A DNA stretch of 24,000 bases from Promethearchaeota archaeon (GCA_018238625.1 JABCSY010000043.1:1-24000), one strand, 5' to 3'. Numbered from the stretch's first letter, positions 9,662 through 21,058 are shown. Numbers and translations are program-made. The notes: generated from the letters alone by a model not told the origin.

Positions 9662-10027
9662 CTAAGGATTTATTTGCTTATCTTGAAATAAATCTTTTAA
9701 CATTTTTTTTAATTGCTTTTTGGATTCTGGAATATTTTTTGTAATAATGTCCCATATTATTTCCAAATCAATTTTGAAATAACCATGAGCGGCGATATTT
9801 CTTAATCCTATCATTTGAGGCCAAGGAAGATCAGGAAACTTAATTTTAATTTCCTCTGGAATGTTTTTTGATGCTTCTCCTATAAGTTCTAAATTTCTTA
9901 AAACCGCATCAATTACCATTTGATTCTCGCAAAAATTTTTATAATCTAAACCCTCAATATATTTCTCAATCAATAAAATGAATTCATTAATATCTTCAAG
10001 AAATAATTTAACGGTTCGTTTTTTCAT
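9662..10027 (-). CDS. hepT: HepT-like toxin (DUF86, nucleotidyltransferase substrate-binding family)
   Basis: The Rx4HxY motif is present (RNIAAHGY). The ~120 aa size fits. The ORF overlaps the upstream MNT gene by 4 bp. Confidence 0.8.
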   Translation of the reverse strand: MKKRTVKLFLEDINEFILLIEKYIEGLDYKNFCENQMVIDAVLRNLELIGEASKNIPEEIKIKFPDLPWPQMIGLRNIAAHGYFKIDLEIIWDIITKNIPESKKQLKKMLKDLFQDKQINP

Positions 10028-10314
10028 ACATAAATCACTTCATGCAGAATTTTATCTTTCATTTGAGGTCTAAGAGCATTTTTTGTTGCCAAATCAACTT
10101 TTTTGTTTAATATTTTTTCAAGAAATTCTTTAAGTATAGAATATTTCCAACCAATTGGACCGTTGAATTTAACATAGATATCTATGTCGCTTTCAGGCGT
10201 TTCTTCACCTCTAGAATATGAACCGAAAACGCCAATTTTCTCAACATAGAATTGATTTTTTAAATAATCTTTTTGTTCTCTTAAAATAGATTCAATTTTC
10301 TTTAACTCAAGCAT
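10024..10314 (-). CDS. mntA: MNT-type minimal nucleotidyltransferase antitoxin
   Basis: The GSxxRG...DxD signature is present (GVFGSYSRGEETPESDIDIYV). The protein is 96 aa. An ATGA overlap joins it to hepT at 10024-10027. Confidence 0.8.
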   Translation of the reverse strand: MLELKKIESILREQKDYLKNQFYVEKIGVFGSYSRGEETPESDIDIYVKFNGPIGWKYSILKEFLEKILNKKVDLATKNALRPQMKDKILHEVIYV

Positions 10315-10481: not shown

Positions 10482-11198
10482 ATGGGCATTCGAAAGATTG
10501 AAGATGAAATTGATTTAAGAGAAGCTATGAAAAGGAAGGCAGCAGAGTTAAAAGTAAAAGATATTCAAGCTAAAGCTTCGACAGAAAACTTTACAAAAGA
10601 AAAACTTCGGGAACTGGCAAAAAAACATGGAGTTATATTGGCTTTAACTCCTGAATTGAAGGATCAAGTCAGAGATTTACAAAGAAAGTATAACATACCG
10701 TCTTCAAAAATCATAACAGAACAAATCATGGAAAACGATGTTTTGAAGAAGTTTTCAAAAATCGACCACGAAAAGTTAGGAATGCTCGCTTATCAAAGAG
10801 TTTTGATGCAAAAAGAAGAAATTGGAGTTGGTTTAATGCCCATTTCTGAAGTTTATGACTTAGTAAATACAGGTATTTTAAAAGAAGTATTAGATTTAAA
10901 AGATTTACTCAAAGCATTAAAGATTCTAAAAAAAGATCGCGTTATAGAGGAATTACAAGAATTAAAGGGCAGTTCCGTAATGGTAAGGTTCTTTCCGGTT
11001 CAGTACACTAACGACCAAGTGAAAATTATCGGAATCGCAAAAGAAAAAGGTTATGTTTCGATTGAAGATATTTGTATTGCTCTAACATGGTCTCAAGATC
11101 GCGCCCTACAAACCCTAAAATCGTTAGAAGATAGTGGAATCGCTAAATTTAGGGAATCTCTTTTAAAAGGAAAGCAGTGGTATTTCCCTTCAATATAA
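10482..11198 (+). CDS. vps22: ESCRT-II EAP30-domain protein (Vps22/Vps36-like)
   Basis: An N-terminal helical region is followed by tandem winged helices. The C-terminal block IAKEKGYVSIEDICIALTWSQDRALQTLKSLEDSGIAKF....QWYFPSI parallels the SNF8/Vps22 block (..AEKNGYVTVSEI...L.W...RA..VLE.L..EGLAW.D....YW.PAL, recalled from memory). Confidence 0.7.
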   Translation: MGIRKIEDEIDLREAMKRKAAELKVKDIQAKASTENFTKEKLRELAKKHGVILALTPELKDQVRDLQRKYNIPSSKIITEQIMENDVLKKFSKIDHEKLGMLAYQRVLMQKEEIGVGLMPISEVYDLVNTGILKEVLDLKDLLKALKILKKDRVIEELQELKGSSVMVRFFPVQYTNDQVKIIGIAKEKGYVSIEDICIALTWSQDRALQTLKSLEDSGIAKFRESLLKGKQWYFPSI

Positions 11199-11203
11199 GA
11201 GAT

Positions 11204-12100
11204 TTATTCTATTTTAATTTTAAAAGAAAGCTGACCGTCATCAAGTTTTATAATCTGCCCTCTCTTATCCTTTTCCAATATTTTAAATATTTTTATTATG
11301 TCGTTATTGGGAAGCGTATTAAAAGCTTTGTTAGATTCTCTTATTTCAAATATTAATATTGGTTCTAATGGTGAAATTTCCATGGCCCAATCATAGATAT
11401 CTTCGGCCCAATTATCTAGACTTTTCCAATAAACTCTTAATTTTTCTTTACTTTTTGATAGCCATTCAGCTTGTTCTTTATTTACTAGTTCTTCAGCGAG
11501 TATCTTTAAAGCTGAGTTACGATCTTCAAAGTTTGAAAAAGGTTTATCGGATTCTAACTTTCTAAGATATAAGATGTGGAGAATAGCGTAGCGAGCGTAG
11601 TCAAAAAGAACTTTAGACCATTCGCTTTTCCAAGATTCGTAATCCTTCAAGTTTGTTTTTTTATTAGGAAGAGAAAACATGAAAACATATCTTTTTTCTT
11701 CGAGCCAAGGATAATCGTTCAATAACAACTCGTAAGTTGATATTTCTCTGACAACGACACCCTTCTCTCTTATTATTTCTAACTCAATCTCTTGGAGCTC
11801 TTTCTCGATTTGAATGGCATTTTGTTTATAAGCTGTTTGATCGATTTCTCCTAGCTTTGATGTGAGAAAGTCTTCAATTTTATCTAAACGCGCTTCTATT
11901 TCTTCGCTTGTTTCTTCCTCAGTAATTTCTTCTGTACCCGCTTCTTGTATCGCTTCTTGCCTTTCTTTCGCTTGTTGGCTTCTTAGTACTTTTAACCGAG
12001 CCAACTCTTTTCTTAAGTCTTCAAGTTCCTTATCTGCTTTTTCTTTAACTTCTTTAGGAACTTCTTTAGGTTTTACCTTTTGCCTCTCCATATTTTCCAA
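11204..12100 (-). CDS. vps25: ESCRT-II Vps25-like protein with a long N-terminal charged coiled-coil extension
   Basis: The C-terminal ~170 aa are collinear with Vps25/EAP20. FMFSLPNKKTNLKDYESWKSEWSKVLFDYAR corresponds to FFTLQPN..TR.KQL..W..L.L.FCR. LAEELVNKEQAEWLSKSKEKLRVYWKSLDNWAEDIYDWA corresponds to LEELRKKGNLEWLDKSK..FLIMWRRPEEWGKLIYQW. The ORF ends in a second winged helix. Confidence 0.75.
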   Translation of the reverse strand: MENMERQKVKPKEVPKEVKEKADKELEDLRKELARLKVLRSQQAKERQEAIQEAGTEEITEEETSEEIEARLDKIEDFLTSKLGEIDQTAYKQNAIQIEKELQEIELEIIREKGVVVREISTYELLLNDYPWLEEKRYVFMFSLPNKKTNLKDYESWKSEWSKVLFDYARYAILHILYLRKLESDKPFSNFEDRNSALKILAEELVNKEQAEWLSKSKEKLRVYWKSLDNWAEDIYDWAMEISPLEPILIFEIRESNKAFNTLPNNDIIKIFKILEKDKRGQIIKLDDGQLSFKIKIE

Positions 12101-12112
12101 CTTTAATTTTTA

Positions 12113-13330
12113 TTAATATTCTCCGAATTCTTTTGCCCATTGTTCGTATTGGTTTAGAGCCGCTTTAGTTGTCATTGGTTTAACTTTTTTTAATGTTTTA
12201 GCAAAATCTTTTAAATTAAGATCCCTTACAATTACTTCTTGATCGGAGTTTTCTAAAAGCCCACCCATATCTAATTCTCTAATTGGAAGCATAATGACTT
12301 CGCGGCACACGTTAGAAATATCTCTTCCCGAATATCCTTCAGACCGAACTCCTAATTCGATAAAATCTTCTTCAGTTAACGCCATATTAATACCTGCGGT
12401 ATGAATTTTAAAGATTCCAATTCTGGCTGTTAGATCTGGAAGTGGCACATACACTTTCTTCTCAAATCTACTAAGCATAGCAGCGTCAATGTCCCAAGGT
12501 CGATTAGTAGCCCCTAAAACTAATAATGGTTTTTTAGAACCCGATTTAACGCCTTGAATTTCGCTTAACAATTGCGTTTTTACCCGTCTTTCGCCACCTC
12601 CTTCGTGCCCTTGACCTCTCTTAGTTGCCACCGAGTCAATTTCATCCATAAAAATTAAACTTGGAGCTTTAATTCGAGCAACTTTAAAAAGCGAGCTGAT
12701 TAATTTCTCACTTTCGCCTAACCATTTGCTTAATAAATCTGCGGATGAAACGCTAAAAAATGTCGCTTCGCATTCCGTAGCAGCAGCTCTCGCTAATAAT
12801 GTTTTTCCACAACCAGGTGGGCCAAACAATAAAATGCCTGACCATGGTTTTCTTGCTCCCGTAAAAAGTTGGGGTTTCATAATTGGCAACACTATCGCTT
12901 CTCTTAAAGCTTGTTTAGACGACTTTAAGCCCGCAATATCGTTCCACCTTACGTTAGGAGATTCTGTTAATATTGTGCCTGAAATCGAATCTATAATTTC
13001 TTGTTCTTCAGCAGAGTATTGTCCCTCCTCCCCTTTTCCCTCGCCATCTTTGGCTTCACTTGTTCCAATAGAGGGTCTACCTTTTCTGGCACGAGGGCCA
13101 CTTAAATGTACTTTTAGTACGTTAGCACGATTAATATACTGTTCAATTTGATCGTGACATTTTCTAACCATTATTGGGTTTTTGTTAAATTGTACGAATT
13201 GAATAAGAATTTCTGCGGCTCTTTGATATTTATTTAGCGCTTGTCTATAATGTCCCTTCTCGTCTAATGCTACTGCTGCTTGTGCTTCTTGAACAGCGTA
13301 TTGATAAAGTTTACTGTCAACACTACTCAA
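12113..13330 (-). CDS. vps4: Vps4 (CdvC-type) MIT-domain AAA+ ATPase
   Basis: There is an N-terminal MIT-like three-helix region (AVQEAQAAVALDEKGHYRQALNKYQRAAEILIQF). Walker A is GPPGCGKT, pore loop 1 is SKWLGESEK and Walker B is LIFMDEID. A C-terminal Vps4_C-like helix is present (LNQYEQWAKEFG). The stop lies 12 bp upstream of the vps25 start, giving an operon-like arrangement. Confidence 0.9.
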   Translation of the reverse strand: MSSVDSKLYQYAVQEAQAAVALDEKGHYRQALNKYQRAAEILIQFVQFNKNPIMVRKCHDQIEQYINRANVLKVHLSGPRARKGRPSIGTSEAKDGEGKGEEGQYSAEEQEIIDSISGTILTESPNVRWNDIAGLKSSKQALREAIVLPIMKPQLFTGARKPWSGILLFGPPGCGKTLLARAAATECEATFFSVSSADLLSKWLGESEKLISSLFKVARIKAPSLIFMDEIDSVATKRGQGHEGGGERRVKTQLLSEIQGVKSGSKKPLLVLGATNRPWDIDAAMLSRFEKKVYVPLPDLTARIGIFKIHTAGINMALTEEDFIELGVRSEGYSGRDISNVCREVIMLPIRELDMGGLLENSDQEVIVRDLNLKDFAKTLKKVKPMTTKAALNQYEQWAKEFGEY

Positions 13331-13544
13331 ATTTATAATGACCTTTTTAAATTATTTATTTATCTTGTTTATCTTAAAAAATTATTAATATTTATAGCTA
13401 ATCTAGTTCGATACTTATTTTATTTATTAATACATCCAAATATATCAAATTTTCTCTTTAAAATTGTACTGTAAACATTGGTCTACAACAAAAAATTATA
13501 TAATCTTGGATTTTTAATATTATTATATAGTAATAACGAAAAAA
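13331..13544. promoter_or_regulatory. Divergent promoter region between vps4 (-) and the ESCRT-III gene (+)
   Basis: This 214-bp AT-rich spacer lies between divergently oriented genes. TATA-like elements sit at about 13496-13503 (preceded by an A-rich BRE-like run) and 13521-13530 on the plus side, and around 13350-13365 on the minus side. No transcription start sites can be determined from sequence alone. Confidence 0.3.
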
Positions 13545-14183
13545 TTGATGATGAATATGGGATTTCTTAAAGATATGTCAAAGTGGTTGTCCGGTGGCCA
13601 AAAAAGTGATTCTGTTCGCTCTGCTACCGTCAAATTAAAGGTGTTCAACAAAAGATTGGCTCGTCAGACTAGGAAAATGGAGATGACATCTAAATTAGCG
13701 AGAGATAAAGCTGTAAAACTTCGAAAAGCTGGTGATATGGACGGTTCAGAATTTCACGCGCGAAATTATCTTCAAGTTAAAAAGCAAGCTAGAGCGATTG
13801 ACCATTTCAGAACTAACTTAGAAGGAATGGTATTTAAGTTGGAACAGGCTAACGCTGTTAAAGATATTTCATTTATCATGCAAGGTATTGCCACTAGCTT
13901 AGGTGCATTAAAAAATCAGTTATCGGTTCCTCAGCTTACAGACTTGATGACCACAATTGGTATTGATATGGAAGATTTTTCTGTTGTTGAAGAGATAACA
14001 TCTGACGGAATAGACGACATGACTCTCGATACAGCAGTTACTGATAACCAGGTTAAGGAGATATTAGGCGAAATCGATGCCGAGATACAAGTTGAAGTAG
14101 GTGGAGCATTACCTTCGGTTGATCCCGATGGAAAGGTAAAAGAATTAGAAGATGAATTAAACAAGTTGAAGTCGCGAGATTAG
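13545..14183 (+). CDS. ESCRT-III (Snf7 family; Vps2/24/46 = CHMP1-3-like by its C-terminal MIM1)
   Basis: A basic N-terminal helical hairpin (KLKVFNKRLARQTRKMEMTSKLARDKAVKLRKAG...) is followed by an acidic C-terminal half. The terminal KELEDELNKLKSR fits the MIM1 spacing. The start is ambiguous (TTG 13545, ATG 13548/13551/13557); MGFLKD at 13557 resembles typical ESCRT-III N-termini. Confidence 0.8.
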   Translation: MMMNMGFLKDMSKWLSGGQKSDSVRSATVKLKVFNKRLARQTRKMEMTSKLARDKAVKLRKAGDMDGSEFHARNYLQVKKQARAIDHFRTNLEGMVFKLEQANAVKDISFIMQGIATSLGALKNQLSVPQLTDLMTTIGIDMEDFSVVEEITSDGIDDMTLDTAVTDNQVKEILGEIDAEIQVEVGGALPSVDPDGKVKELEDELNKLKSRD

Positions 14184-14184
14184 A

Positions 14185-14195
14185 TTTTTTTTTTT
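14185..14195 (+). terminator. Oligo-T tract (T11) immediately after the ESCRT-III stop codon
   Basis: Eleven consecutive T residues begin 2 nt after TAG 14181-14183. Archaeal RNA polymerase terminates at oligo-T. Confidence 0.5.
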
Positions 14196-14286
14196 AAGTT
14201 TCTCTTTTTGACTACCAAGCAAAATTATTTAAGCTAAAACTCTATTTTTAATTTATTCTCTAATTCAATATTTAAAAGTGTTAAAA

Positions 14287-15294
14287 ATGAATCCAGAATT
14301 AATAACGATTGGTAGTTGTACTCTTGATTGTATGCTACAAGTTAAAGATATTCTTAGATTTGAATTGTTTGATAAAGAAATTGTTAAAAAATACACTGCA
14401 ATTGAATACAGTCGCAAACTGAATGTCGATGGCGTTCTATTTGTTCCTGGGGGGTCTGCTGCCAATATTGCGTCAAATTGCGCGATGTTGGGGTTAAAAA
14501 GCGCTTATCTTGGCGTATTAGGGAACGACTTTTCAGCAAGTATTTGTTTAGATGATATGAAAAAAAGAGGTGTAGATCTTTCAAGTATCATTCAAACTGA
14601 TGAGGATTGTACGGCGTTTTCAGTAATTTTAAAAACTGAATGGGGAAAAGACAGAAGTATTCTTGCTTATAAAGGTGCAAATAACATGTTAAAACCAGAG
14701 GATGTAAAAGAAGATATATTTCAAGATATCAAAGCTTTTGCTTGGACATCGTTAACTACCGAAAGTGGTTGTAGAGCAATTGAGAAAGCACTAACGCTCA
14801 CTTTAGAAAACGGTGGTAAAGTATTTGCCGCACCCAGCATGTCAATTATTAAAAACAACCCAAAATGGGCAAGAATTCTTATTTCAAACTCAAATGTCGT
14901 TTCATTAAATAAAGAAGAGGCTCAAGAGTTTACAAACGAGACAGATATAGTTCACATGATTCATAACTTTTTAGATCTTGGAATAAAATTAATTTCAATT
15001 ACCGATGGTCCCAATGGCTCAATTATATCTGATGGCAAACATATTGTGAACAGTTCAATTTACGAGGGTCCGGTCGAAGACACCACAGGAGCAGGAGACG
15101 CTTTTCTAAGTGGACTACTAATATCCCAACTAAACGAGTTTAGTTTAGAGAAATCGTCTAAGATGGCAACAGCAATGTCTTACTTAGAAAGCAAAGAGGT
15201 CGGGGTTCGAGAGGGCTTACCTAATAGTTTACGTGAGTTAGAAGCCTTTATAGATAATAATGAGATAAAACAAAAAGTTTCAAAGATAGTTTGA
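14287..15294 (+). CDS. PfkB-family carbohydrate/nucleoside kinase (ribokinase-like)
   Basis: GGSAANIA lies near the N-terminus and the C-terminal anion-hole motif is DTTGAGDAFLSG. The size is ~335 aa. I prefer ATG 14287 (MNPELITIG) to GTG 14278. Confidence 0.8.
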   Translation: MNPELITIGSCTLDCMLQVKDILRFELFDKEIVKKYTAIEYSRKLNVDGVLFVPGGSAANIASNCAMLGLKSAYLGVLGNDFSASICLDDMKKRGVDLSSIIQTDEDCTAFSVILKTEWGKDRSILAYKGANNMLKPEDVKEDIFQDIKAFAWTSLTTESGCRAIEKALTLTLENGGKVFAAPSMSIIKNNPKWARILISNSNVVSLNKEEAQEFTNETDIVHMIHNFLDLGIKLISITDGPNGSIISDGKHIVNSSIYEGPVEDTTGAGDAFLSGLLISQLNEFSLEKSSKMATAMSYLESKEVGVREGLPNSLRELEAFIDNNEIKQKVSKIV

Positions 15295-15381
15295 TTGAAA
15301 AGATAAAAAGATACAAATAAACCTGCTGAAATCAGATCTATTGGAAGATGGTACGGGCAATTTTTAAAAGGGTACGCTGGA

Positions 15382-15636
15382 GTGTCAGTAATACTTTCCT
15401 ATATTGAATTTTTTAATTTATTTGTACCTCAACTTGCAAAAGATCTGTCGCTAACAATTTTCATCATGCTATTAATAGTGTTTATCCCGTTTCCATTAGT
15501 AATGATGATTCCTATAATTCCAGCTTTTATAATTTCGGATCGGCTAAAAGGGCACAGAATAAGATATATAAGGAAAAAAGCAAGCAAATTGGGTATTACA
15601 TCTAAAGCAGAAGTGAATTTTGAATTAAAAAATTAA
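15382..15636 (+). CDS. Small two-TM hypothetical membrane protein
   Basis: 84-aa ORF with a GTG start, two hydrophobic segments and a basic tail. No homology recognised. Confidence 0.3.
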   Translation: MSVILSYIEFFNLFVPQLAKDLSLTIFIMLLIVFIPFPLVMMIPIIPAFIISDRLKGHRIRYIRKKASKLGITSKAEVNFELKN

Positions 15637-15901: not shown

Positions 15902-16720
15902 CTAATCTAAAATAACCGATAGGTCGTGATCGAAATAGCTAGTTAGTATAATTAACAATAATTCAAGATAATTTCCTGATAAATTAATATTCCATCTTTT
16001 ATTTAACTGTTTAAGAAGTTCCTTCTTCCGTAATTTTTTAGGTTTTTTATATTTATCGAGAAGATCAATCAAATCTCTTGAATATTCGTGAAGATTTAAA
16101 AGTTCATTTTTTAATACAAATTTACTCGTCTCTAAATTGTAAGTGTCGAAAAAATTTTGAACGATAGCTCGTTCAATACCCATTTTTTTCGGATTAATAA
16201 TATTAGTATCGTCCTTGACTATTTGATTAGCTTGAAGAACTATGTGTTCCTCGTATAGTATTTTGTCCTTTTTATAATCTTCTGCTGAAATTATCGCTAT
16301 CTCATTTTTAAAAGAATTTGAAGTTATATATTTGAGAAAGTTTTTAATTTGTTTATTAATGAAAGGATCGCTAGAGAGAATCACTATTTTTTTACCAGTA
16401 ACGATTGCTCTAATCGTGTTTATTAATAGAGAAGGAAGTAAATTTATTTTAATTAAAGATATATTAAATTCTTCTATTTCAGTAGGTACCGTTTCAATTT
16501 TTTTATTTGGTAAAGCTTCAGGAAGCGCTATCTGGAAATCAGCAATATAACAATCTCTAATAGAAAAATTTTTATCTACATACGCAATAAACGAATGTGA
16601 ACAGAAAGTCTTATCAATATTAATAGCAAATAATCCCTTCGCTGCCTTTTTAACATCTTCCTCGGAGATTTCAAGCTCTCCTCTTTTTGAACAAGCGGGG
16701 CAACGAACTTCAATTTTCAT
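15902..16720 (-). CDS. Uncharacterised Zn-knuckle + alpha/beta-core protein, paralogue A (hypothesis: folliculin-like longin + DENN-like architecture)
   Basis: 272 aa. The N-terminal domain contains CPAC...CSH. The central part is IRAIVTGKKIVILSSD, then a helix, then EIAIISAEDY. A helical tail follows. It is clearly paralogous to 19579-20424. Confidence 0.6.
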   Translation of the reverse strand: MKIEVRCPACSKRGELEISEEDVKKAAKGLFAINIDKTFCSHSFIAYVDKNFSIRDCYIADFQIALPEALPNKKIETVPTEIEEFNISLIKINLLPSLLINTIRAIVTGKKIVILSSDPFINKQIKNFLKYITSNSFKNEIAIISAEDYKKDKILYEEHIVLQANQIVKDDTNIINPKKMGIERAIVQNFFDTYNLETSKFVLKNELLNLHEYSRDLIDLLDKYKKPKKLRKKELLKQLNKRWNINLSGNYLELLLIILTSYFDHDLSVILD

Positions 16721-16732
16721 AAATTCTTATTA

Positions 16733-16791
16733 AATTATTCAACTTACCGAAGTATTAGTATAACTCGAATTATCAATAAAGTTGAATTATT
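16733..16791. repeat. Imperfect inverted repeat (13-bp arms, 1 mismatch, 33-bp spacer) upstream of paralogue A
   Basis: aattattcaactt (16733-16745) pairs with aagttgaattatt (16779-16791). It lies between the methyltransferase stop (16858) and the paralogue A start (16720). Confidence 0.4.
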
Positions 16792-16857
16792 CTTTTTTAA
16801 GTAACTATTAACCATTTGAGTTTATTAAGATAGCTAAGAAAAATGTAATGCTTTTTT

Positions 16858-17466
16858 TCATTTTCTTATAATGTAGTCAATCATGCCTTGAGTAGAATCC
16901 CGCTCACTCAGATATTCCCTTCTGATTTGTTTATAGATAATTTTATAATCTTCAAAATATCTATCGCCTTCTTTATATTCGAAATAAGTGTGTGAAAATT
17001 GTTCTCCATTTTCTTCATCCATAAATGTACCCGAACTAATTTCTTTTCCAATTCCATAACTAGAATCGTCTATCGAAAGTAAATTCACATAAATTAATCC
17101 TTGCTTTTTAAGAACACGAAACATTTCATTGATAGCTTCTGCTATTTCTTCTTTATTCATATGAAAGATGGTATTGTAAGTGTATACAAATCCAAATGCT
17201 TCATTTTCATAAGGAAGTTTTCTCATGTCCCCCTTAGTAATGTTTAAGTTAAAGCCGTTCTTTTTAGCAAAATTTTCTGCATTTTGAATCCGCTCTTCTG
17301 AAATTTCGATTCCATAAGTTTCAAATCCATGGATTGCAAAAAGTGCGAGTTTAGGAAAGTTACCCCCCGCCCCACAATCTAGTATAGTCTGTTCAACTTG
17401 AGCATCATGTGTGTAATCTAGAAAATTATATAAAGGTGCTGGAAAAATCTTTTGAGTCATTTTCAT
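16858..17466 (-). CDS. Class I SAM-dependent methyltransferase (Methyltransf_11/25-like)
   Basis: Motif I is ILDCGAGGN. It is followed by YGIEISE, an acidic post-I residue, and FGFVYTYNTIFHM / LKKQGLIYVNL. The substrate is unknown. Confidence 0.75.
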   Translation of the reverse strand: MKMTQKIFPAPLYNFLDYTHDAQVEQTILDCGAGGNFPKLALFAIHGFETYGIEISEERIQNAENFAKKNGFNLNITKGDMRKLPYENEAFGFVYTYNTIFHMNKEEIAEAINEMFRVLKKQGLIYVNLLSIDDSSYGIGKEISSGTFMDEENGEQFSHTYFEYKEGDRYFEDYKIIYKQIRREYLSERDSTQGMIDYIIRK

Positions 17467-17587
17467 ATCACTAATTCTTACTGTACTTAAATTAATTTGA
17501 ATTTCTTATTAAAATATTGTATAAAAGTCATAATTATCTTCGTGAAAGGGCTGTTTCACGATCTGTTTTTAAAAATAAAAAAAAAAG

Positions 17588-19315
17588 TTAAAATTTTGAT
17601 TCTCTATAAAATATCCGTATTGGTTCTTTCAAACCATAATGAAGCGTTAAAAAGCCCATGGCTATTGCAAAGATTGCTAAACTTGGCCAAAAAGAAGCCC
17701 ATGGGGCATTGTATAAATAGTTTCTTGCCTCACTGACATTAGTTCCTAATTGTACTAGCACTAAAGGATCGGAAAATCCAAGGAAACCTATTGCTTCGAA
17801 TAACAAAATATTGAACGCCATGAATAACGGGAAATATACAATTAACTTCTTTACGGTTAATTTTAAGCTGTAATTTCCCCTACTGATTATTAAAGTGACC
17901 CAAGGTATCATATACAGGGACATAATGTTCATTATGACTGAGATATTTCCTCCTCCCAAAATACTAAATGACATTATTATCAAAACTATGCTGGGTATTA
18001 TGAAAAGGATTACCATGAATCCCAATACCAATCCTTTTACCCACCTATGAACTTTGGATAAATAACCAAATAATATTCCTATCGCAATTCCTATGAGAAC
18101 AGGCAAGATACAAACTCTCATCGATGTTGATACACCATATGCCAATAATGCAAGTACATCGCGTCCAAATCTAGCTTGTCCTAAGGGATGATTAGCCGAT
18201 GGCGGATCCCAAGCACCCGCATAAATGCCAGTTGCTTCTTCTATAGTAAATGGAGTTAATATCTGTGGAAATATAGCTATTATTGTTGTGAATACCACCA
18301 CAGCTATTCCTATTATTGTTAATGGCGTTTTTAGCCGATAAAATATAAAATCTTTAAATTTTTGGTCTGAATCGACACTATATTGAGTACCTTCTTCAAT
18401 CATTCGCTCGGATTTCCCTAAATACTTAGTAAAAATTGGTGATTGGCTTTCCTCTGAGAAAAAAGCGTAAATTGTGTATCCTATATTCGATAGGAATAGA
18501 ATAATTGCGGGAAGTACGACTAGGATAAATACGTATGCTCTGCATAACCAATAATCCATAAGATTAATTGCAGTAATGAAAAGTCCAAAAAAACCATGTA
18601 TTCCGAATGTAACTTCGAGAATGAAAATACTTGCAATTAAAACGCTTAAATTCATAATTATCTGCAAGCTATTGGATAAAATATGTTTTTCCTCTGATTT
18701 CCTCAAATAATTAGAACGAACTTGTCTTGTCGTGAGAAATAAAGTTAACAGAAATAACACACAAGACGGTAAAAATGAATCTCCCACCGGGGGAAAAAGT
18801 CCCAATTGATAACCTAAAACGTATTGGAACCACATCCCTAAAGAAAATATCGGTATCGAAATACCTAAAATAATAAGGATTTGAATAAATACTTTAACCA
18901 ATTTATATCTAACTCTAAATGATAATATCCCTAGTAAAATACCTACAATTAAACCTAAAACAATCGGTAATATTGTAAAACCTAAAGTTACTGGAATCCT
19001 CTCAGTTAAAAGTTCAACTACAGTGCTACCTTGCGAAATAGCAATGGAGATCCCTAGATTTCCTGAAAAGAGCTCAGAAAGATACCTAAAGAACTGGACA
19101 TCCAAAGGTTGATCAAAACCTAATGATATAAACGCTGCATCATGTGCTGCTTGCGAAAACGGAATACCTTGAGCTTGTAGATATGCAAGAACTATATCAC
19201 CAGGCAGTAACCGAAGTAACTGAAAAAATTGAAAGCTCAGAACCAATCCGAAAAATAGTGGCACGATAGGGAGTAGAATAGTATAGAGTATGTTTCTAAT
19301 AACATCTTTTAACAT
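17588..19315 (-). CDS. Fused ABC-transporter permease (OppB/DppB-like N-half + OppC/DppC-like C-half)
   Basis: The N-half starts MLKDVIRNILYTILL...LLRLLPGDIV, a typical DppB N-terminus. The C-half has HPLGQARFGRDVLALLAYGVSTSMRV...GILFGYLS, the typical DppC signature. I prefer ATG 19315 over the track start 19471. Confidence 0.75.
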   Translation of the reverse strand: MLKDVIRNILYTILLPIVPLFFGLVLSFQFFQLLRLLPGDIVLAYLQAQGIPFSQAAHDAAFISLGFDQPLDVQFFRYLSELFSGNLGISIAISQGSTVVELLTERIPVTLGFTILPIVLGLIVGILLGILSFRVRYKLVKVFIQILIILGISIPIFSLGMWFQYVLGYQLGLFPPVGDSFLPSCVLFLLTLFLTTRQVRSNYLRKSEEKHILSNSLQIIMNLSVLIASIFILEVTFGIHGFFGLFITAINLMDYWLCRAYVFILVVLPAIILFLSNIGYTIYAFFSEESQSPIFTKYLGKSERMIEEGTQYSVDSDQKFKDFIFYRLKTPLTIIGIAVVVFTTIIAIFPQILTPFTIEEATGIYAGAWDPPSANHPLGQARFGRDVLALLAYGVSTSMRVCILPVLIGIAIGILFGYLSKVHRWVKGLVLGFMVILFIIPSIVLIIMSFSILGGGNISVIMNIMSLYMIPWVTLIISRGNYSLKLTVKKLIVYFPLFMAFNILLFEAIGFLGFSDPLVLVQLGTNVSEARNYLYNAPWASFWPSLAIFAIAMGFLTLHYGLKEPIRIFYRESKF

Positions 19316-19578
19316 TTTATTTTGCCTTTTTTTTAATAAATGAAGATAATATAATTCGTTAAGATACTGAAATATATAAATGTGATAGAACCAAATATTA
19401 TTCATATTTACTACAGGGTGACTTTTAATTCTAAAAGCGATGGAACCATTTAGTCTAGCACTTAAAGACAATTGGGGCGGAAATAAATTAGCAAAAGTAA
19501 TAATTCATCAAAATGATGAATTAGTTGCTGATTATTTAACAAAGATTTTCAAATAATTTAAAATATAAAAAATCTTAC

Positions 19579-20424
19579 TTACAAAGCTCCAAGAAAATTA
19601 GAAACATTTGAAGATTTAGGAACTTCAACATTGAAATAACTCTCAACGATTTCAAAAAGAAAATCGAGATATTTTAATTGGATTTTTACATTGTGAATGT
19701 TAGATAAATCTTCAATTATTTTTTTTGAATAAACCTTCTCTTTTTTTTTAAAATTTTTAACTATGTCTACTATCGTTTCAGATAATTGGTAAGCTTTTAG
19801 TAGTCCATTTTGTAGATATATTAAACTGGGTCTTGGCTCATATTCCTCAAAAAATTTCTGCACTAAGGCTCTTTCTATGCCTAATTTTTTTACATTGATG
19901 ATACCATCGTCGTCCTTTATAATGTCCTTACGGTTAAAAACAATAAAATCTTTATAACTTTCGCTATTATATTGATCTTCTGAAATGACAACAAGCTCAG
20001 TTTCAAAAGAATTTCTTGTTATATAGTCAAAAAACCTTTGAACATCATCAAACATAAATAGCTGGTCAAAAATTAAAACGATCTTTCTCTTATGTAATAT
20101 AGCTCTAATTACATAAGCGATTAAGGAAGCAGACAAATTAAGTTTGATTGAACTTACGTTAATTGAATCAAGTTGAGCGGAGTCTTTAGGTTCTATACTT
20201 TTTTCCGGAATTATCTCAGGAAGTTCTAATTGAAAATCTGCCATAAATGTGTCTCTTACCATGAAGTTCTTATCTATGTAAGCAACGAAAGAATGCTCGC
20301 AAATAATACCTTCCGCCAAATTTACTGCAAACACCCCTCTTTTAGCTTTTTCTATTTCCTCTTCAGAAACTTCAATAAAGCCTCTACTTGAACATGAGGG
20401 GCAACGAACTTCTATTTTCTTCAT
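19579..20424 (-). CDS. Uncharacterised Zn-knuckle + alpha/beta-core protein, paralogue B (hypothesis: folliculin-like longin + DENN-like architecture)
   Basis: 281 aa. It has CPSC...CEH, IRAILHKRKIVLIFD followed by a helix and ELVVISEDQY, and GIERALVQKFF. It is collinear with 15902-16720 over its full length. Confidence 0.6.
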   Translation of the reverse strand: MKKIEVRCPSCSSRGFIEVSEEEIEKAKRGVFAVNLAEGIICEHSFVAYIDKNFMVRDTFMADFQLELPEIIPEKSIEPKDSAQLDSINVSSIKLNLSASLIAYVIRAILHKRKIVLIFDQLFMFDDVQRFFDYITRNSFETELVVISEDQYNSESYKDFIVFNRKDIIKDDDGIINVKKLGIERALVQKFFEEYEPRPSLIYLQNGLLKAYQLSETIVDIVKNFKKKEKVYSKKIIEDLSNIHNVKIQLKYLDFLFEIVESYFNVEVPKSSNVSNFLGAL

Positions 20425-20578
20425 ATTTAAAAATCTTAATGATTGAAATATATTTTAAAAATTCCGATTAAATACGAACTGTAACTAATTTTTAATCATT
20501 TTAATATTTAAATATTAACTGAGTTAATAAAAATTTTTTGTTGATTTATATACAGTTGTGTTAATTCATTCAAATTTT

Positions 20579-21058
20579 TTAATGTCTAGAAATTTTTGCG
20601 TATTTTTTCTCAATAAAATTAGCTATTAGTAAGGAAACTAATGTGGCTAAATTCTCCGCTATTAAAAATGACATGATGTTGTTTAAGAAAATATAACATA
20701 TTCCATATGTACTAAAAAATAGAATAGTAAAAATAGGGAAAGTTATAGCTAAAGGTCTCACAATTGGAAAATACAAGAATTTTTGAATTTTCGAAGTTTT
20801 TTGTCGCGATTTACTAAATTGAGTTTTTAATTTTTTCGTTCTTTCGACTTGAGCAAACGATTCAAAAATAATAACTACTCCAAAAAATAAGGCTACTGTT
20901 GCTCCAATAGGGATTAGAATTACAACAAGATGATTACCTACGCCTAAAAAGTATTGAGCTACAAATATAAAAAATACCTGGAAAAGCCCACATGCACCGA
21001 ATAACATAAAAGCAATCGGTATATATTCCTTAGTTGACCAGCGAAATCTTATTGGCAT
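20579..21058 (-). CDS. Hypothetical 4-TM membrane protein
   Basis: 159 aa with two hydrophobic hairpins separated by a basic loop (KKLKTQFSKSRQKTSK). No motif recognised. Confidence 0.45.
   Translation of the reverse strand: MPIRFRWSTKEYIPIAFMLFGACGLFQVFFIFVAQYFLGVGNHLVVILIPIGATVALFFGVVIIFESFAQVERTKKLKTQFSKSRQKTSKIQKFLYFPIVRPLAITFPIFTILFFSTYGICYIFLNNIMSFLIAENLATLVSLLIANFIEKKYAKISRH

What the first reader, a model, noticed from the sequence alone, without database searches (positions are those of the whole stretch)
15902..20424. Pair of divergent paralogues of an unrecognised Zn-knuckle/alpha-beta family: possible folliculin-like (longin + DENN-like) heterodimer
Two same-strand ORFs (272 and 281 aa) start 3.7 kb apart and bracket a SAM methyltransferase and a fused ABC permease. 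They are collinear paralogues.

By hand alignment, more than half of the first ~70 residues are identical, and identity is lower after that. Shared blocks are:
- IEVRCPxCSxRG
- CxHSF[IV]AY[IV]DKNFx[IV]RD..[IM]ADFQ..LPE
- IK[IL]NL
- IRAI...[KR]KIV[IL]
- F..YIT.NSF..E...[IV]IS..[DQ]Y
- I[IV]KDD..IIN.KK[ML]GIERA[IL]VQ.FF..Y
- YL[ED][LF]L..I..SYF

I recognise no characterised prokaryotic family with these motifs. The order of elements is a CxxC...CxH knuckle inside a small mixed alpha/beta domain, then a helix-strand-helix-strand core (KIVILSSD - helix - IAIISAEDY), then a helical tail.

From memory, this order resembles folliculin. Folliculin has an N-terminal CxxC followed by G, an SHTFFIKD..ARG block carrying the Arg finger for Rag GAP activity, and a C-terminal DENN-like core of the type VIWKSRD - helix - RIIPYSSQY. 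The invariant Arg in F[SM][IV]RD would be the candidate finger residue.

Eukaryotic longin-DENN regulators act as heterodimers of two divergent paralogues (FLCN-FNIP, C9orf72-SMCR8, NPRL2-NPRL3). A paralogue pair in an ESCRT-bearing, Asgard-like genome is therefore provocative. No small GTPase gene is present in this window, and the folliculin link is a hypothesis, not a result.
Basis: partly seen in the sequence, partly recalled or inferred. Interest (0 to 1): 0.85.

Follow-up and report, generated by a model that had tools for sequence, protein, structure and literature searches.

The report
Asgard zinc-ribbon DENN-fold protein paralogues
The two ORFs are diverged copies of an unannotated Asgard-archaeal protein that joins a zinc-binding N-terminal domain to a DENN fold (the eukaryotic small-GTPase-regulator domain); DENN proteins are already known in Asgard archaea, so this is a new variant of a known kind, and the folliculin-like heterodimer idea is only partly borne out.

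Summary
ORF A (15902-16720, 272 aa) and ORF B (19579-20424, 281 aa) are paralogues: 43% identity over 265 aa, E 4e-67.

No Pfam, NCBIfam or PDB sequence search recognises them. AlphaFold2 models are confident (pLDDT 86-89). By Foldseek, the C-terminal two thirds matches only DENN-family structures: DENND1A/B, FLCN and the C9orf72-SMCR8 complex (probability 0.95-0.99, TM 0.45-0.52).

The N-terminal 64 residues carry invariant CPxC...CxH ligands on two beta-hairpins. That is a zinc-ribbon arrangement. It has no GP motif and does not fit a canonical longin.

The family has 649 clusters at 50% identity, and every named genome hit is an Asgard MAG. It is normally single-copy. Copy A is a retained tandem duplicate found only in the window's lineage, later separated from B by an ABC permease and a methyltransferase.

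The constant partner is a 159-aa four-TM protein immediately upstream (68 of 81 genes). The pair sits in a conserved block next to Snf7, Vps4, Vps25 and EAP30.

Ras/Rab-like GTPase genes recur next to four distinct subfamilies, once in a tight operon, but none lies in this window.

Best reading: a membrane-associated DENN-type regulator of a small GTPase. This is a new variant of a known Asgard kind, not a demonstrated folliculin-like heterodimer.

The parts
19579..20424 (-). ORF B, 281 aa: the widespread, syntenic copy of the Zn-ribbon + DENN-fold family
   Evidence: ORF. 252 homologues in the 5.8-billion-protein search. AF2 model pLDDT 85.9, pTM 0.87. Foldseek top 4 are DENND1A/B.
20233..20424 (-). 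B residues 1-64: five-stranded beta domain with zinc ligands C8, C11 (CPxC knuckle, beta1-beta2) and C42, H44 (before beta4), and the motif YxDKNxxxRDxxxxDF with Arg57
   Evidence: DSSP. Conservation: C8/P9/C11/C42 76/76, H44 74/76, D51 75/76, R57 74/76, D63 73/76. 102 of 105 full-length-size representatives carry CxxC...Cx[HD].
19627..20160 (-). B residues 89-266: DENN-like region, with an alpha/beta core (strands 114-118, 143-147, 160-164, 167-170) and a helical lobe (197-262)
   Evidence: by homology with A.
15902..16720 (-). ORF A, 272 aa: lineage-specific diverged duplicate that keeps all near-invariant residues and lacks the 15-residue C-terminal tail of B
   Evidence: A orthologues are 82-87% identical and always lie downstream of a B copy (L085, L086). 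Long branch in the NJ tree.
16535..16720 (-). A residues 1-62: zinc-ribbon-like N-domain (C7, C10, C40, H42; Arg55)
   Evidence: Alignment.
15938..16462 (-). A residues 87-261: DENN fold (cDENN-like core plus dDENN-like helical lobe)
   Evidence: Truncated AF2 model pLDDT 88.6, pTM 0.85. Foldseek top 7 are all DENN-family chains, probability 0.95-0.99, TMq 0.45-0.50.
20579..21058 (-). 159-aa protein with four predicted TM segments ('TM159'), the constant upstream neighbour of the family
   Evidence: Immediately upstream on the same strand for 68 of 81 family genes that have at least 700 bp of upstream sequence. 46-92% identical across 72 loci; hydropathy gives 4 TM segments. No Pfam or NCBIfam hit.
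20425..20578 (-). TM159-B spacer of conserved length (median 149 bp across loci), with a conserved TTTAAATA-type box at about 20501-20513, about 77 nt upstream of the B start codon. It is a candidate promoter for B.
   Evidence: Promoter function is inferred, not tested.
16858..19471 (-). Cargo between the two copies: SAM methyltransferase (16858-17466) and fused Opp/Nik-type ABC permease (17588-19471). It lies in a variable region and is not part of the conserved module.
   Evidence: Relatives have B>A directly (L085), B>permease>A (L086) or B>MTase (L002-L004).
10482..15294 (.). Conserved flanking block: EAP30/Vps22-36 (10482-11198 +), Vps25 (11204-12100 -), Vps4 (12113-13330 -), Snf7 (13545-14183 +), PfkB kinase (14278-15294 +)
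   Evidence: Pfam. The same order occurs in up to 47 other loci.

Best explanation
A and B belong to a large Asgard-archaeal family of about 280-aa cytosolic proteins. Each has a zinc-ribbon-like N-terminal beta domain followed by a DENN domain (alpha/beta core plus helical lobe). By analogy with every characterised DENN protein, the family most likely binds and regulates a Ras/Rab-like small GTPase, as a GEF or GAP; which of the two is open. It probably acts at the membrane together with a co-encoded small multi-pass membrane protein, which in this window is the 159-aa protein upstream of B.

B is the ancestral, syntenic copy. A is a tandem duplicate that arose in the window's own Lokiarchaeial lineage, diverged strongly and has been retained. 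It was later separated from B by insertion of an ABC permease and a methyltransferase into a variable region.

Shown: paralogy, family size, conserved zinc ligands and Arg57, the predicted DENN fold, the synteny and the GTPase neighbours. Inferred: zinc binding, GTPase regulation, the membrane-partner interaction and any A-B interaction.
For: - Paralogy: 43% identity, E 4e-67.
- Family size: 649 representatives at 50% identity with E<=1e-3, 155 with E<=1e-30, almost all about 280 aa.
- Taxonomy: the 80 genome loci retrieved are all Asgard MAGs.
- Models: confident AF2 predictions.
- Fold of A 62-272: DENND1B 3tw8 (probability 0.99, TMq 0.47), DENND1A 6ekk_A (0.98, TMq 0.50), 7mge_C of C9orf72:SMCR8:WDR41 (0.97), FLCN 6ulg_L (0.96), 7o2w_B (0.95). 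More DENN chains follow at ranks 9-11 and 16. Non-DENN hits reach 0.14 at most.
- Fold of full-length B: DENND1A/B at ranks 1-4.
- Sequence hint: a weak Pfam DENN hit (E 0.059) on the helix-strand-helix core of two members.
- Zinc ligands and Arg57 are near-invariant.
- GTPase association, primary locus: a Ras-family GTPase (PF00071, E 1e-48) lies beside Snf7 in 18 of 42 loci that hold both the family gene and Snf7.
- GTPase association, L090: family gene > 242-aa multi-TM protein > Rab-like GTPase, with 31-bp and 12-bp gaps.
- GTPase association, L089 and L091: the family gene lies next to GTPase-fusion proteins and a conserved multi-TM protein.
- Membrane partners: TM159 is adjacent in 68/81 cases. 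The c26 multi-TM family lies next to secondary paralogues and in L092.
- Duplication history.
Against: - No sequence-level link to DENN or FLCN: Pfam, NCBIfam, PDB HMM searches and hhalign are all non-significant.
- No Foldseek E-value is below 1e-3; the best is 5.6e-3. TM-scores sit around the 0.5 borderline.
- The MSAs behind the models are shallow (15 and 30 sequences).
- The window itself has no GTPase.
- The primary-locus synteny is one large block that also holds housekeeping genes (PGK, PfkB, LarB/LarC-like genes). Closeness to ESCRT genes and to the c13 GTPase (2-8 kb away, opposite strand) may therefore reflect general gene-order conservation among related genomes rather than function.
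- Small GTPases are abundant in Asgard genomes, so some adjacency is expected by chance.
- One divergent member (L087/L088) has no GTPase or membrane neighbour.
- B appears to have its own promoter rather than forming an operon with TM159.
Confidence: 0.5

Rival explanations
1. One reading: A and B are a folliculin/FNIP-like heterodimer of longin + DENN subunits, in which the N-domain is a longin and Arg57 is the catalytic arginine finger of a GAP for a Rag/Arf-type GTPase.
For: - FLCN and chains of C9orf72-SMCR8 complexes are among the top structural matches.
- Arg57 is 97% conserved and lies at the beta4-beta5 turn, the loop type that carries the finger in FLCN (my reading of the FLCN sequence; the sequence itself was verified).
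- Tandem or paired copies arose at least three times (window/L085/L086, L041, L077), and A is retained at 82-87% identity.
- A P0268-type relative carries an extra N-terminal region with GP...ARG motifs reminiscent of FLCN-type longins (motif reading only).
Against: - The GP motif, described in PMC12290439 as specific to the GAP longins, is absent in 0/76 sequences.
- The four invariant zinc ligands tie the beta1-beta2 loop to the beta3-beta4 loop. In a canonical longin sheet these loops lie at opposite ends (inference from the known longin topology).
- The helix between beta2 and beta3 has only 5 residues.
- hhalign to FLCN gives probability 0.2.
- 82 of 85 loci carry a single copy.
- Both copies keep the Arg, so there is no catalytic asymmetry.
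- No Rag or Arf GTPase and no roadblock gene lies in the window.
- No A-B interface could be modelled with these tools.
Confidence: 0.1
2. The protein has a DENN fold but is not a GTPase regulator. It would be a scaffold or adaptor for the neighbouring membrane protein TM159, or an accessory of the adjacent ESCRT-III/Vps4 machinery.
For: - TM159 adjacency is the tightest association seen: 68/81 genes, with a constant spacer of about 149 bp.
- The pair lies 2-4 genes from Snf7/Vps4/Vps25/EAP30 in up to 42 loci.
- The window's lineage lacks the c13 GTPase at this locus.
- From my own knowledge, some eukaryotic DENN proteins such as DENND10 in Commander have no demonstrated GEF role; DENND10 is among the structural hits.
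Against: - GTPase genes recur beside four distinct subfamilies, including one tight operon.
- The synteny block also contains unrelated housekeeping genes, so the ESCRT proximity is weak evidence.
- The ESCRT survey papers I could read do not list such a component.
Confidence: 0.25
3. The protein is a zinc-ribbon nucleic-acid-binding regulator whose C-terminal alpha/beta domain senses a ligand or partner.
For: - Weak hits to the Zn_ribbon_Brz domain of a transcription regulator in 6/85 members.
- In two relatives (P0243, P0267) the zinc domain is replaced by a winged-helix HTH (HTH_IclR E 1e-6, TrmB) fused to the same C-terminal domain.
Against: - The zinc-ribbon hits are non-significant (E>=0.04).
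- The HTH fusions are rare: 2 of the 150 listed representatives.
- There is no basic surface motif or DNA-related neighbour.
- The membrane-protein and GTPase neighbourhood points elsewhere.
Confidence: 0.07
4. The DENN resemblance is a modelling or search artefact: a generic three-layer alpha/beta domain plus helices that happens to score best against DENN chains.
For: All Foldseek E-values are above 1e-3. TM is 0.45-0.52. There is no sequence-profile support. The MSAs are shallow.
Against: - Two independent models (B full length, A truncated) from different alignments both rank DENN chains first.
- Eleven DENN-family chains from five proteins or complexes appear in the top 16, with a sharp probability gap (>=0.95 against <=0.14).
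- The weak Pfam DENN hit maps to the equivalent core element.
- The GTPase neighbourhoods fit DENN biology.
Confidence: 0.08

Closest known systems
DENND1A/DENND1B DENN domains (Rab35 GEFs; PDB 6ekk, 3tw8)
   Same: Best structural matches for both models. The order of elements is the same: alpha/beta core, then a helical lobe. The helix-strand-helix element (LIAYVIRAILHKRKIVLIFD...FFDYI) gives a weak hit (E 0.059) to the central part of the Pfam DENN model in a relative.
   Different: No significant sequence similarity. The protein is about 100 residues shorter. The N-terminal lobe is a small zinc-binding beta domain rather than a uDENN/longin. The core has 4 predicted strands. GEF activity is untested.
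Longin-DENN GAP complexes: FLCN-FNIP2 and C9orf72-SMCR8 (PDB 6ulg, 8dhb, 7mge, 7o2w)
   Same: The C-terminal DENN domain matches FLCN and chains of C9orf72-SMCR8 complexes (probability 0.95-0.97). An invariant Arg lies in the N-domain. A diverged paralogue pair exists in this lineage.
   Different: No GP motif. The N-domain is not a canonical longin. There is no profile similarity to FLCN. The family is normally single-copy. Both copies keep the Arg. No Rag/Arf GTPase or Ragulator-like genes are adjacent.
Asgard DENN-domain proteins reported by Liu et al. 2020/2021 (bioRxiv 10.1101/2020.10.19.343400)
   Same: [quoted passage not shown] The L090 operon found here (family gene, membrane protein, Rab-like GTPase) resembles their DENN-GTPase operon.
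   Different: Their operon contains a LAMTOR1-like roadblock protein, which I did not find here; the partner here is a multi-pass membrane protein. I could not check whether their asCOGs include this family, because the supplementary tables are not held. Sources name these proteins only 'hypothetical protein'.
Zinc-ribbon domains (e.g. Pfam Zn_ribbon_Brz PF23454)
   Same: Two knuckles (CPxC and CxH) on successive beta-hairpins, with four invariant ligands.
   Different: Only sub-threshold Pfam hits (E>=0.04). An extra strand is present, and a strongly conserved YxDKNxxxRDxxxxDF motif is not part of known zinc ribbons. The domain is fused to a DENN domain.

Membership tests
DENN domain superfamily | cDENN alpha/beta core followed by a dDENN helical lobe, superposable on solved DENN structures | tested here: met
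   the top 7 PDB hits are all DENN-family chains (probability 0.95-0.99, TMq 0.45-0.50; 7o2w_A TMq 0.52). DENND1A/B at ranks 1-4 for the full-length B model. This rests on predicted, not solved, structure.
DENN domain superfamily | Significant match to the Pfam DENN profile (PF02141) | tested here: not met
   A and B: no hit. 85 members: 2 hits at E 0.059, 13.7 bits against a cut-off of 23.4. Family consensus: no hit.
DENN domain superfamily | N-terminal uDENN (longin-type) lobe | tested here: inconclusive
DENN domain superfamily | Binds or regulates a Rab-type small GTPase | not testable with these tools
   Genomic association only: the c13 Ras-family GTPase in 18/42 loci, the L090 operon, and the L089/L091 neighbours.
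Folliculin-type longin-DENN GAP subunits (FLCN, SMCR8, NPRL2 class) | GP motif in the loop before beta2 of the longin domain (PMC12290439) | tested here: not met
   0 of 76 aligned members have GP within 16 residues of the CPxC. The loop reads CPxCxxxG.
Folliculin-type longin-DENN GAP subunits (FLCN, SMCR8, NPRL2 class) | Conserved arginine finger in the longin domain | tested here: inconclusive
   Arg57 is conserved in 74/76 sequences. Its structural equivalence to FLCN R164 was not tested.
Folliculin-type longin-DENN GAP subunits (FLCN, SMCR8, NPRL2 class) | Heterodimer of two divergent paralogues | tested here: not met
   As a family trait: one copy at the locus in 82 of 85 loci. A pair exists only in the window, L085/L086, L041 and L077. 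Physical interaction was not testable.
Folliculin-type longin-DENN GAP subunits (FLCN, SMCR8, NPRL2 class) | Profile-level sequence similarity to FLCN | tested here: not met
   hhalign of the 76-sequence profile against human FLCN (sequence verified against 6ulg_L): probability 0.2, E 0.32. The FLCN side was a single sequence, so sensitivity was limited.
Zinc ribbon | Two zinc knuckles on beta-hairpins supplying four conserved Cys/His ligands | tested here: met
   C8/C11 at the beta1-beta2 turn and C42/H44 before beta4. Conservation is 100%, 100%, 100% and 97%. 102 of 105 representatives carry the motif. Metal binding itself was not tested.
Asgard DENN operon of Liu et al. (roadblock + Rab-like GTPase + DENN) | Operon with a LAMTOR1-like roadblock protein and a Rab-like GTPase | tested here: not met
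   The window has neither gene. The relative L090 has family gene > multi-TM protein > Rab-like GTPase, with no roadblock protein detected.

The most novel reading that the evidence does not exclude
The family, its obligate small membrane-protein neighbour and a Rab-like GTPase form a primordial membrane-anchored DENN switch that is functionally coupled to the adjacent ESCRT-III/Vps4 genes in Lokiarchaeia. The retained A/B pair in this lineage would then be an independent, recent re-run of the duplication that produced heterodimeric DENN complexes such as FLCN-FNIP in eukaryotes.
Probability: 0.12. Interest if true: 0.85.

Novelty: new variant of a known kind. Interest (0 to 1): 0.55.

Why it matters
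DENN and longin-DENN proteins are core regulators of Rab, Rag and Arf GTPases in eukaryotic membrane traffic, and their prokaryotic roots are a live question in eukaryogenesis.

This family is a compact DENN-fold protein that Pfam, NCBIfam and the source annotations seen here do not name. It has 649 clusters at 50% identity. It has a zinc-ribbon in place of the longin lobe, a constant membrane-protein neighbour, recurrent GTPase neighbours and a fixed position beside the Asgard ESCRT genes.

If the GTPase link is real, the family offers a small candidate for reconstituting an archaeal DENN-GTPase-membrane module. It would also give a concrete hypothesis for how GTPase signalling and ESCRT might be connected before eukaryotes. 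The A/B pair offers a natural experiment on how DENN paralogues diverge after duplication.

Tried and rejected
**Sequence searches that found nothing significant**
- Pfam on A and B, on 85 members and on the family consensus.
- NCBIfam.
- phmmer and hmmsearch against PDB sequences with A1 and A2.
- hhalign of the family profile against human FLCN: probability 0.2.
- hhalign of the family profile against the N-terminal extension of P0268: probability 0.1.

**The P0268 N-terminal extension**
- PDB and Pfam searches gave only chance hits.
- The third homologue search, spent on it, found one fragment. Its longin-like GP...ARG reading therefore stays a motif impression only.

- The search for related loci with the 85-sequence alignment failed for lack of conserved stretches. 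The 15-sequence alignment worked, but its patterns restrict it to closer relatives, so 'Asgard-only' is shown only for those.

**Literature**
- The supplementary tables of Liu et al. are not held.
- The FLCN cryo-EM paper and a longin-GAP review are not held.
- The ESCRT surveys and the Asgard structural-modelling paper do not mention this family.

**Ideas considered and rejected**
- That A and B form an operon with the permease and methyltransferase as a functional unit. Those genes are variably present cargo in a rearrangement hotspot.
- That TM159 and B form an operon. A conserved TATA-like box lies in the spacer.

Full report
**1. The observation**

The window is AT-rich (26-37% GC). On the minus strand it encodes ORF A (15902..16720, 272 aa) and ORF B (19579..20424, 281 aa).
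- BLASTP of A against B gives 43% identity and 66% positives over 265 residues with four gaps, E 4e-67.
- Identity is 58.8% in residues 1-70 and 36.1% afterwards.
- Between the two ORFs lie a SAM methyltransferase and a fused Opp/Nik-type ABC permease.

**2. Setting**

Pfam annotation of the other ORFs shows an Asgard ESCRT locus:
- EAP30 (10482-11198), Vps25/ESCRT-II (11204-12100), Vps4 (12113-13330) and Snf7 (13545-14183)
- then PfkB kinase, A, the methyltransferase, the permease, B, a 159-aa membrane protein (20579-21058) and phosphoglycerate kinase.

The closest named homologues of B come from 'Promethearchaeota/Lokiarchaeota' MAGs.

**3. Family**

- B has 252 hits in the 5.8-billion-protein search, all about 281 aa and all unnamed or 'hypothetical'.
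- A has only 16 close relatives, plus weak hits to B-type proteins.
- A profile of 15 sequences finds 649 cluster representatives (50% identity clusters) at E<=1e-3 and 155 at E<=1e-30. Nearly all are 270-300 aa.
- A pattern-seeded scan of one genome per GTDB species returned 115 relatives. The 80 that were kept are all Asgard MAGs.
- In 76 diverse full-length members, C8, P9, C11 and C42 are invariant. H44 (74/76, otherwise Asp), D51, R57 (74/76), D63, N96, F140 and F191 are nearly so.
- 102 of 105 full-length-size representatives carry CxxC...Cx[HD].

**4. Fold**

AlphaFold2 on B with 15 sequences gives pLDDT 85.9 and pTM 0.87. The elements are:
- five strands with one 5-residue helix (residues 2-61)
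- a poorly conserved linker
- three helices (79-110)
- an alpha/beta core (strands 114-118, 143-147, 160-164 and 167-170, with helices between them)
- a helical lobe (197-262).

Foldseek against the PDB ranks DENND1A and DENND1B first to fourth (E 5.6e-3 to 1.6e-2, probability 0.72-0.84). DENND10 has the best TM (0.41 over 217 columns). Everything else is incoherent.

I then modelled an independent sequence, A residues 62-272, with a different 30-sequence alignment (pLDDT 88.6, pTM 0.85). Its top seven PDB hits are all DENN-family chains:
- DENND1B (probability 0.99, TMq 0.47)
- 7mge_C of the C9orf72:SMCR8:WDR41 complex (0.97)
- FLCN 6ulg_L (0.96, TMq 0.45)
- DENND1A (0.98, TMq 0.50)
- 7o2w_B of the C9orf72-SMCR8 complex (0.95).

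DENND10, 7o2w_A (TMq 0.52), 8dhb_I and 7mge_B follow at ranks 9-16. Unrelated folds reach probability 0.14 at most.

I take the DENN fold of the C-terminal two thirds as well supported, with three caveats. No E-value is below 1e-3, the TM-scores are borderline, and there is no sequence-profile support. Pfam DENN appears only at E 0.059 in two of 85 members, although on the structurally equivalent helix-strand-helix element.

**5. The N-terminal domain**

Three points argue against a canonical longin.
- *Zinc ligands.* They come from the beta1-beta2 turn (CPxC) and from just before beta4 (CxH). For one metal site these loops must be neighbours. In the canonical longin sheet (order 2-1-5-4-3 with a crossover helix after beta2, from established knowledge of the fold), the beta1-beta2 loop neighbours the beta4-beta5 loop, and the beta3-beta4 loop lies at the opposite end.
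- *Crossover helix.* The helix after beta2 is only five residues long.
- *GP motif.* PMC12290439 describes this motif as specific to the FLCN, SMCR8, C9orf72 and NPRL2 GAP longins. It is absent from all 76 members.

Two knuckles on successive hairpins is the zinc-ribbon pattern. The only Pfam hints, all sub-threshold, are zinc-ribbon families. hhalign of the family profile against human FLCN gives probability 0.2; I had first confirmed my recalled FLCN sequence against 6ulg_L.

**6. Is the pair a heterodimer?**

I clustered ORFs from 84 related loci plus the window.
- The conserved order is PGK > TM159 > family gene > [variable region] > PfkB < (Ras-like GTPase <) Snf7 < Vps4 > Vps25 > EAP30 < NIP7.
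- Only the window, L041 and L077 hold two family genes.
- Contigs carrying A-type proteins show B>A in direct tandem (L085) or B>permease>A (L086). A therefore arose as a tandem duplicate just downstream of B, and cargo genes were inserted later.
- The region between the family gene and PfkB is a rearrangement hotspot with many different inserts.
- A orthologues are 82-87% identical to each other and B orthologues 87-91%, while A against B is 39-43%. A is thus maintained after an early burst of divergence. It sits on a long branch in an NJ tree.
- The L041 duplication is independent. The second L077 copy groups with a different paralogue subfamily.

Paired copies are therefore recurrent but exceptional. 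Both copies retain every near-invariant residue, including the Arg. That does not exclude an A-B complex, but it removes the argument that the family works as an obligate heterodimer.

**7. What travels with the family**

*Membrane proteins*
- The tightest partner is TM159. It lies immediately upstream on the same strand for 68 of 81 family genes that have enough upstream sequence. The spacer length is remarkably constant (median 149 bp, mostly 125-160).
- TM159 has four hydrophobic segments and is better conserved than the family gene, at 46-92% identity.
- The spacer holds a conserved TTTAAATA-type box about 77 nt before the B start codon, so B probably has its own promoter.
- Secondary paralogues elsewhere in the same genomes sit next to a different multi-pass membrane protein family, c26.

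*GTPases*
- In 18 of the 42 loci that contain both the family gene and Snf7, a 183-aa Ras-family GTPase (PF00071, E 1e-48) lies beside PfkB and Snf7, 2-8 kb from the family gene. The window's lineage lacks it.
- In L090, a divergent member is followed by a 242-aa multi-TM protein and a Rab-like GTPase (35-38% identical to c13), with 31-bp and 12-bp gaps. This is an evident operon.
- In L089 and L091, two further subfamilies lie next to 555-aa and 471-aa GTPase-fusion proteins (46% identical to each other) and a conserved multi-TM protein (64.5% identical). L089 also has a separate 196-aa GTPase.
- L092 has the c26-type membrane protein 8 bp downstream but no GTPase.
- L087/L088 have neither.

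From my recollection, small GTPases are roughly 2% of Lokiarchaeal genes, so a GTPase within two genes should occur at under 10% of random loci. Finding it in two or three of four or five independent contexts is suggestive, but it is not a formal test.

**8. Caveats on the ESCRT link**

The conserved block also includes PGK, PfkB, LarB/LarC-like genes and others on the far side. The proximity to ESCRT genes may therefore be inherited gene order among related Lokiarchaeia rather than functional clustering. The ESCRT surveys I could read do not list a DENN-like or GTPase component at this locus.

**9. Comparison with the literature**

- Liu et al. reported DENN-domain proteins in Asgard archaea. 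They described a conserved operon with a LAMTOR1-like roadblock protein and a Rab-like GTPase, expanded paralogue families in Loki, Hel and Heimdall, and Heimdall proteins with FLCN-like architecture.
- PMC12290439 describes Asgard FLCN/SMCR8-type longins with a GP motif and an arginine finger.
- PMC13392464 notes DENN-like folds in prokaryotes without pursuing them.

The general kind is therefore known. I did not find the following described elsewhere: the zinc-ribbon + DENN architecture, the TM159 partnership, the fixed position by the ESCRT genes and the A/B duplication. I could not check the asCOG tables of Liu et al..

**10. Verdict**

The most likely function is a membrane-associated DENN-type regulator of a Ras/Rab-like GTPase (confidence about 0.5). 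The main alternative is a DENN-fold adaptor for TM159 or ESCRT without GTPase activity. I classify it as a new variant of a known kind, of moderate interest.

Noticed in passing
window 20425-20578; loci L001-L084: The spacer between TM159 and the family gene has a nearly constant length (median 149 bp, mostly 125-160) across 68 loci. It contains a conserved TTTAAATA-type box (window about 20501-20513) and a semi-conserved downstream stretch, possibly a promoter plus 5' UTR element.
   Followed up: partly
window 15313-15627 (+): The 84-aa ORF at 15382-15636 is the C-terminal remnant of a 287-aa membrane-protein family (c11) that is full length in 22 related loci. Only residues 183-285 of c11 align (61% identity). 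The 5' two thirds are deleted right after PfkB.
   Followed up: yes
window 9662-10314 (-): A HepT-like toxin (9662-10027, PF01934 E 2e-28) overlaps by 4 bp an MNT-type nucleotidyltransferase ORF (10024-10314, motif GVFGSYSRGE...DIDI). This toxin-antitoxin pair is inserted between NIP7 and EAP30, which are adjacent in relatives such as L001-L005.
   Followed up: partly
L019, L021, L023, L026-L028, L037, L040, L044, L046, L048, L049, L051, L056, L061, L065, L070, L075, L080, L082, L083: A 183-aa Ras-family GTPase (PF00071, E 1e-48) sits directly beside PfkB and Snf7 at the Asgard ESCRT locus in many genomes, but it is missing from the window's lineage. I did not find this noted in the ESCRT papers I read.
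   Followed up: partly
P0268/P0303; L089 5180-6505: A 441-aa family member has an extra N-terminal region of about 170 aa with 'YFDEIRGPKIF' and 'YIDNKFARGRQ' motifs, reminiscent of the GP motif and Arg finger of FLCN/SMCR8-type longins. In its zinc domain the conserved Arg57 is replaced by His. No search confirmed the longin reading.
   Followed up: partly
P0243, P0267 (L093 1504-2847): In two relatives the zinc-ribbon domain is replaced by a winged-helix HTH (HTH_IclR/TrmB) plus about 150 residues, fused to the same DENN-like C-terminal domain.
   Followed up: no
L089 7434-9101 and L091 7618-9033: Proteins of 555 and 471 aa (46% identical) carry a roadblock/longin-like N-terminus by eye, a central Arf/Ras/Roc GTPase domain and a long helical C-terminus. 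They are conserved next to family members and next to a multi-TM protein (64.5% identical between the two loci).
   Followed up: partly
window 17588-19471 (-): The fused OppB/OppC (Nik-type) permease has no ATPase or solute-binding gene beside it in the window. Its mechanical TTG start gives 627 aa against 564-568 aa in orthologues, so the real start is probably downstream. It is one of many alternative inserts in the hotspot between the family gene and PfkB.
   Followed up: no
window 19579-19626 (B residues 267-281): B-type proteins end in a semi-conserved, low-confidence tail (consensus ...PKSSxxSNFLxxL) that copy A lacks. It may be a short linear interaction motif.
   Followed up: no
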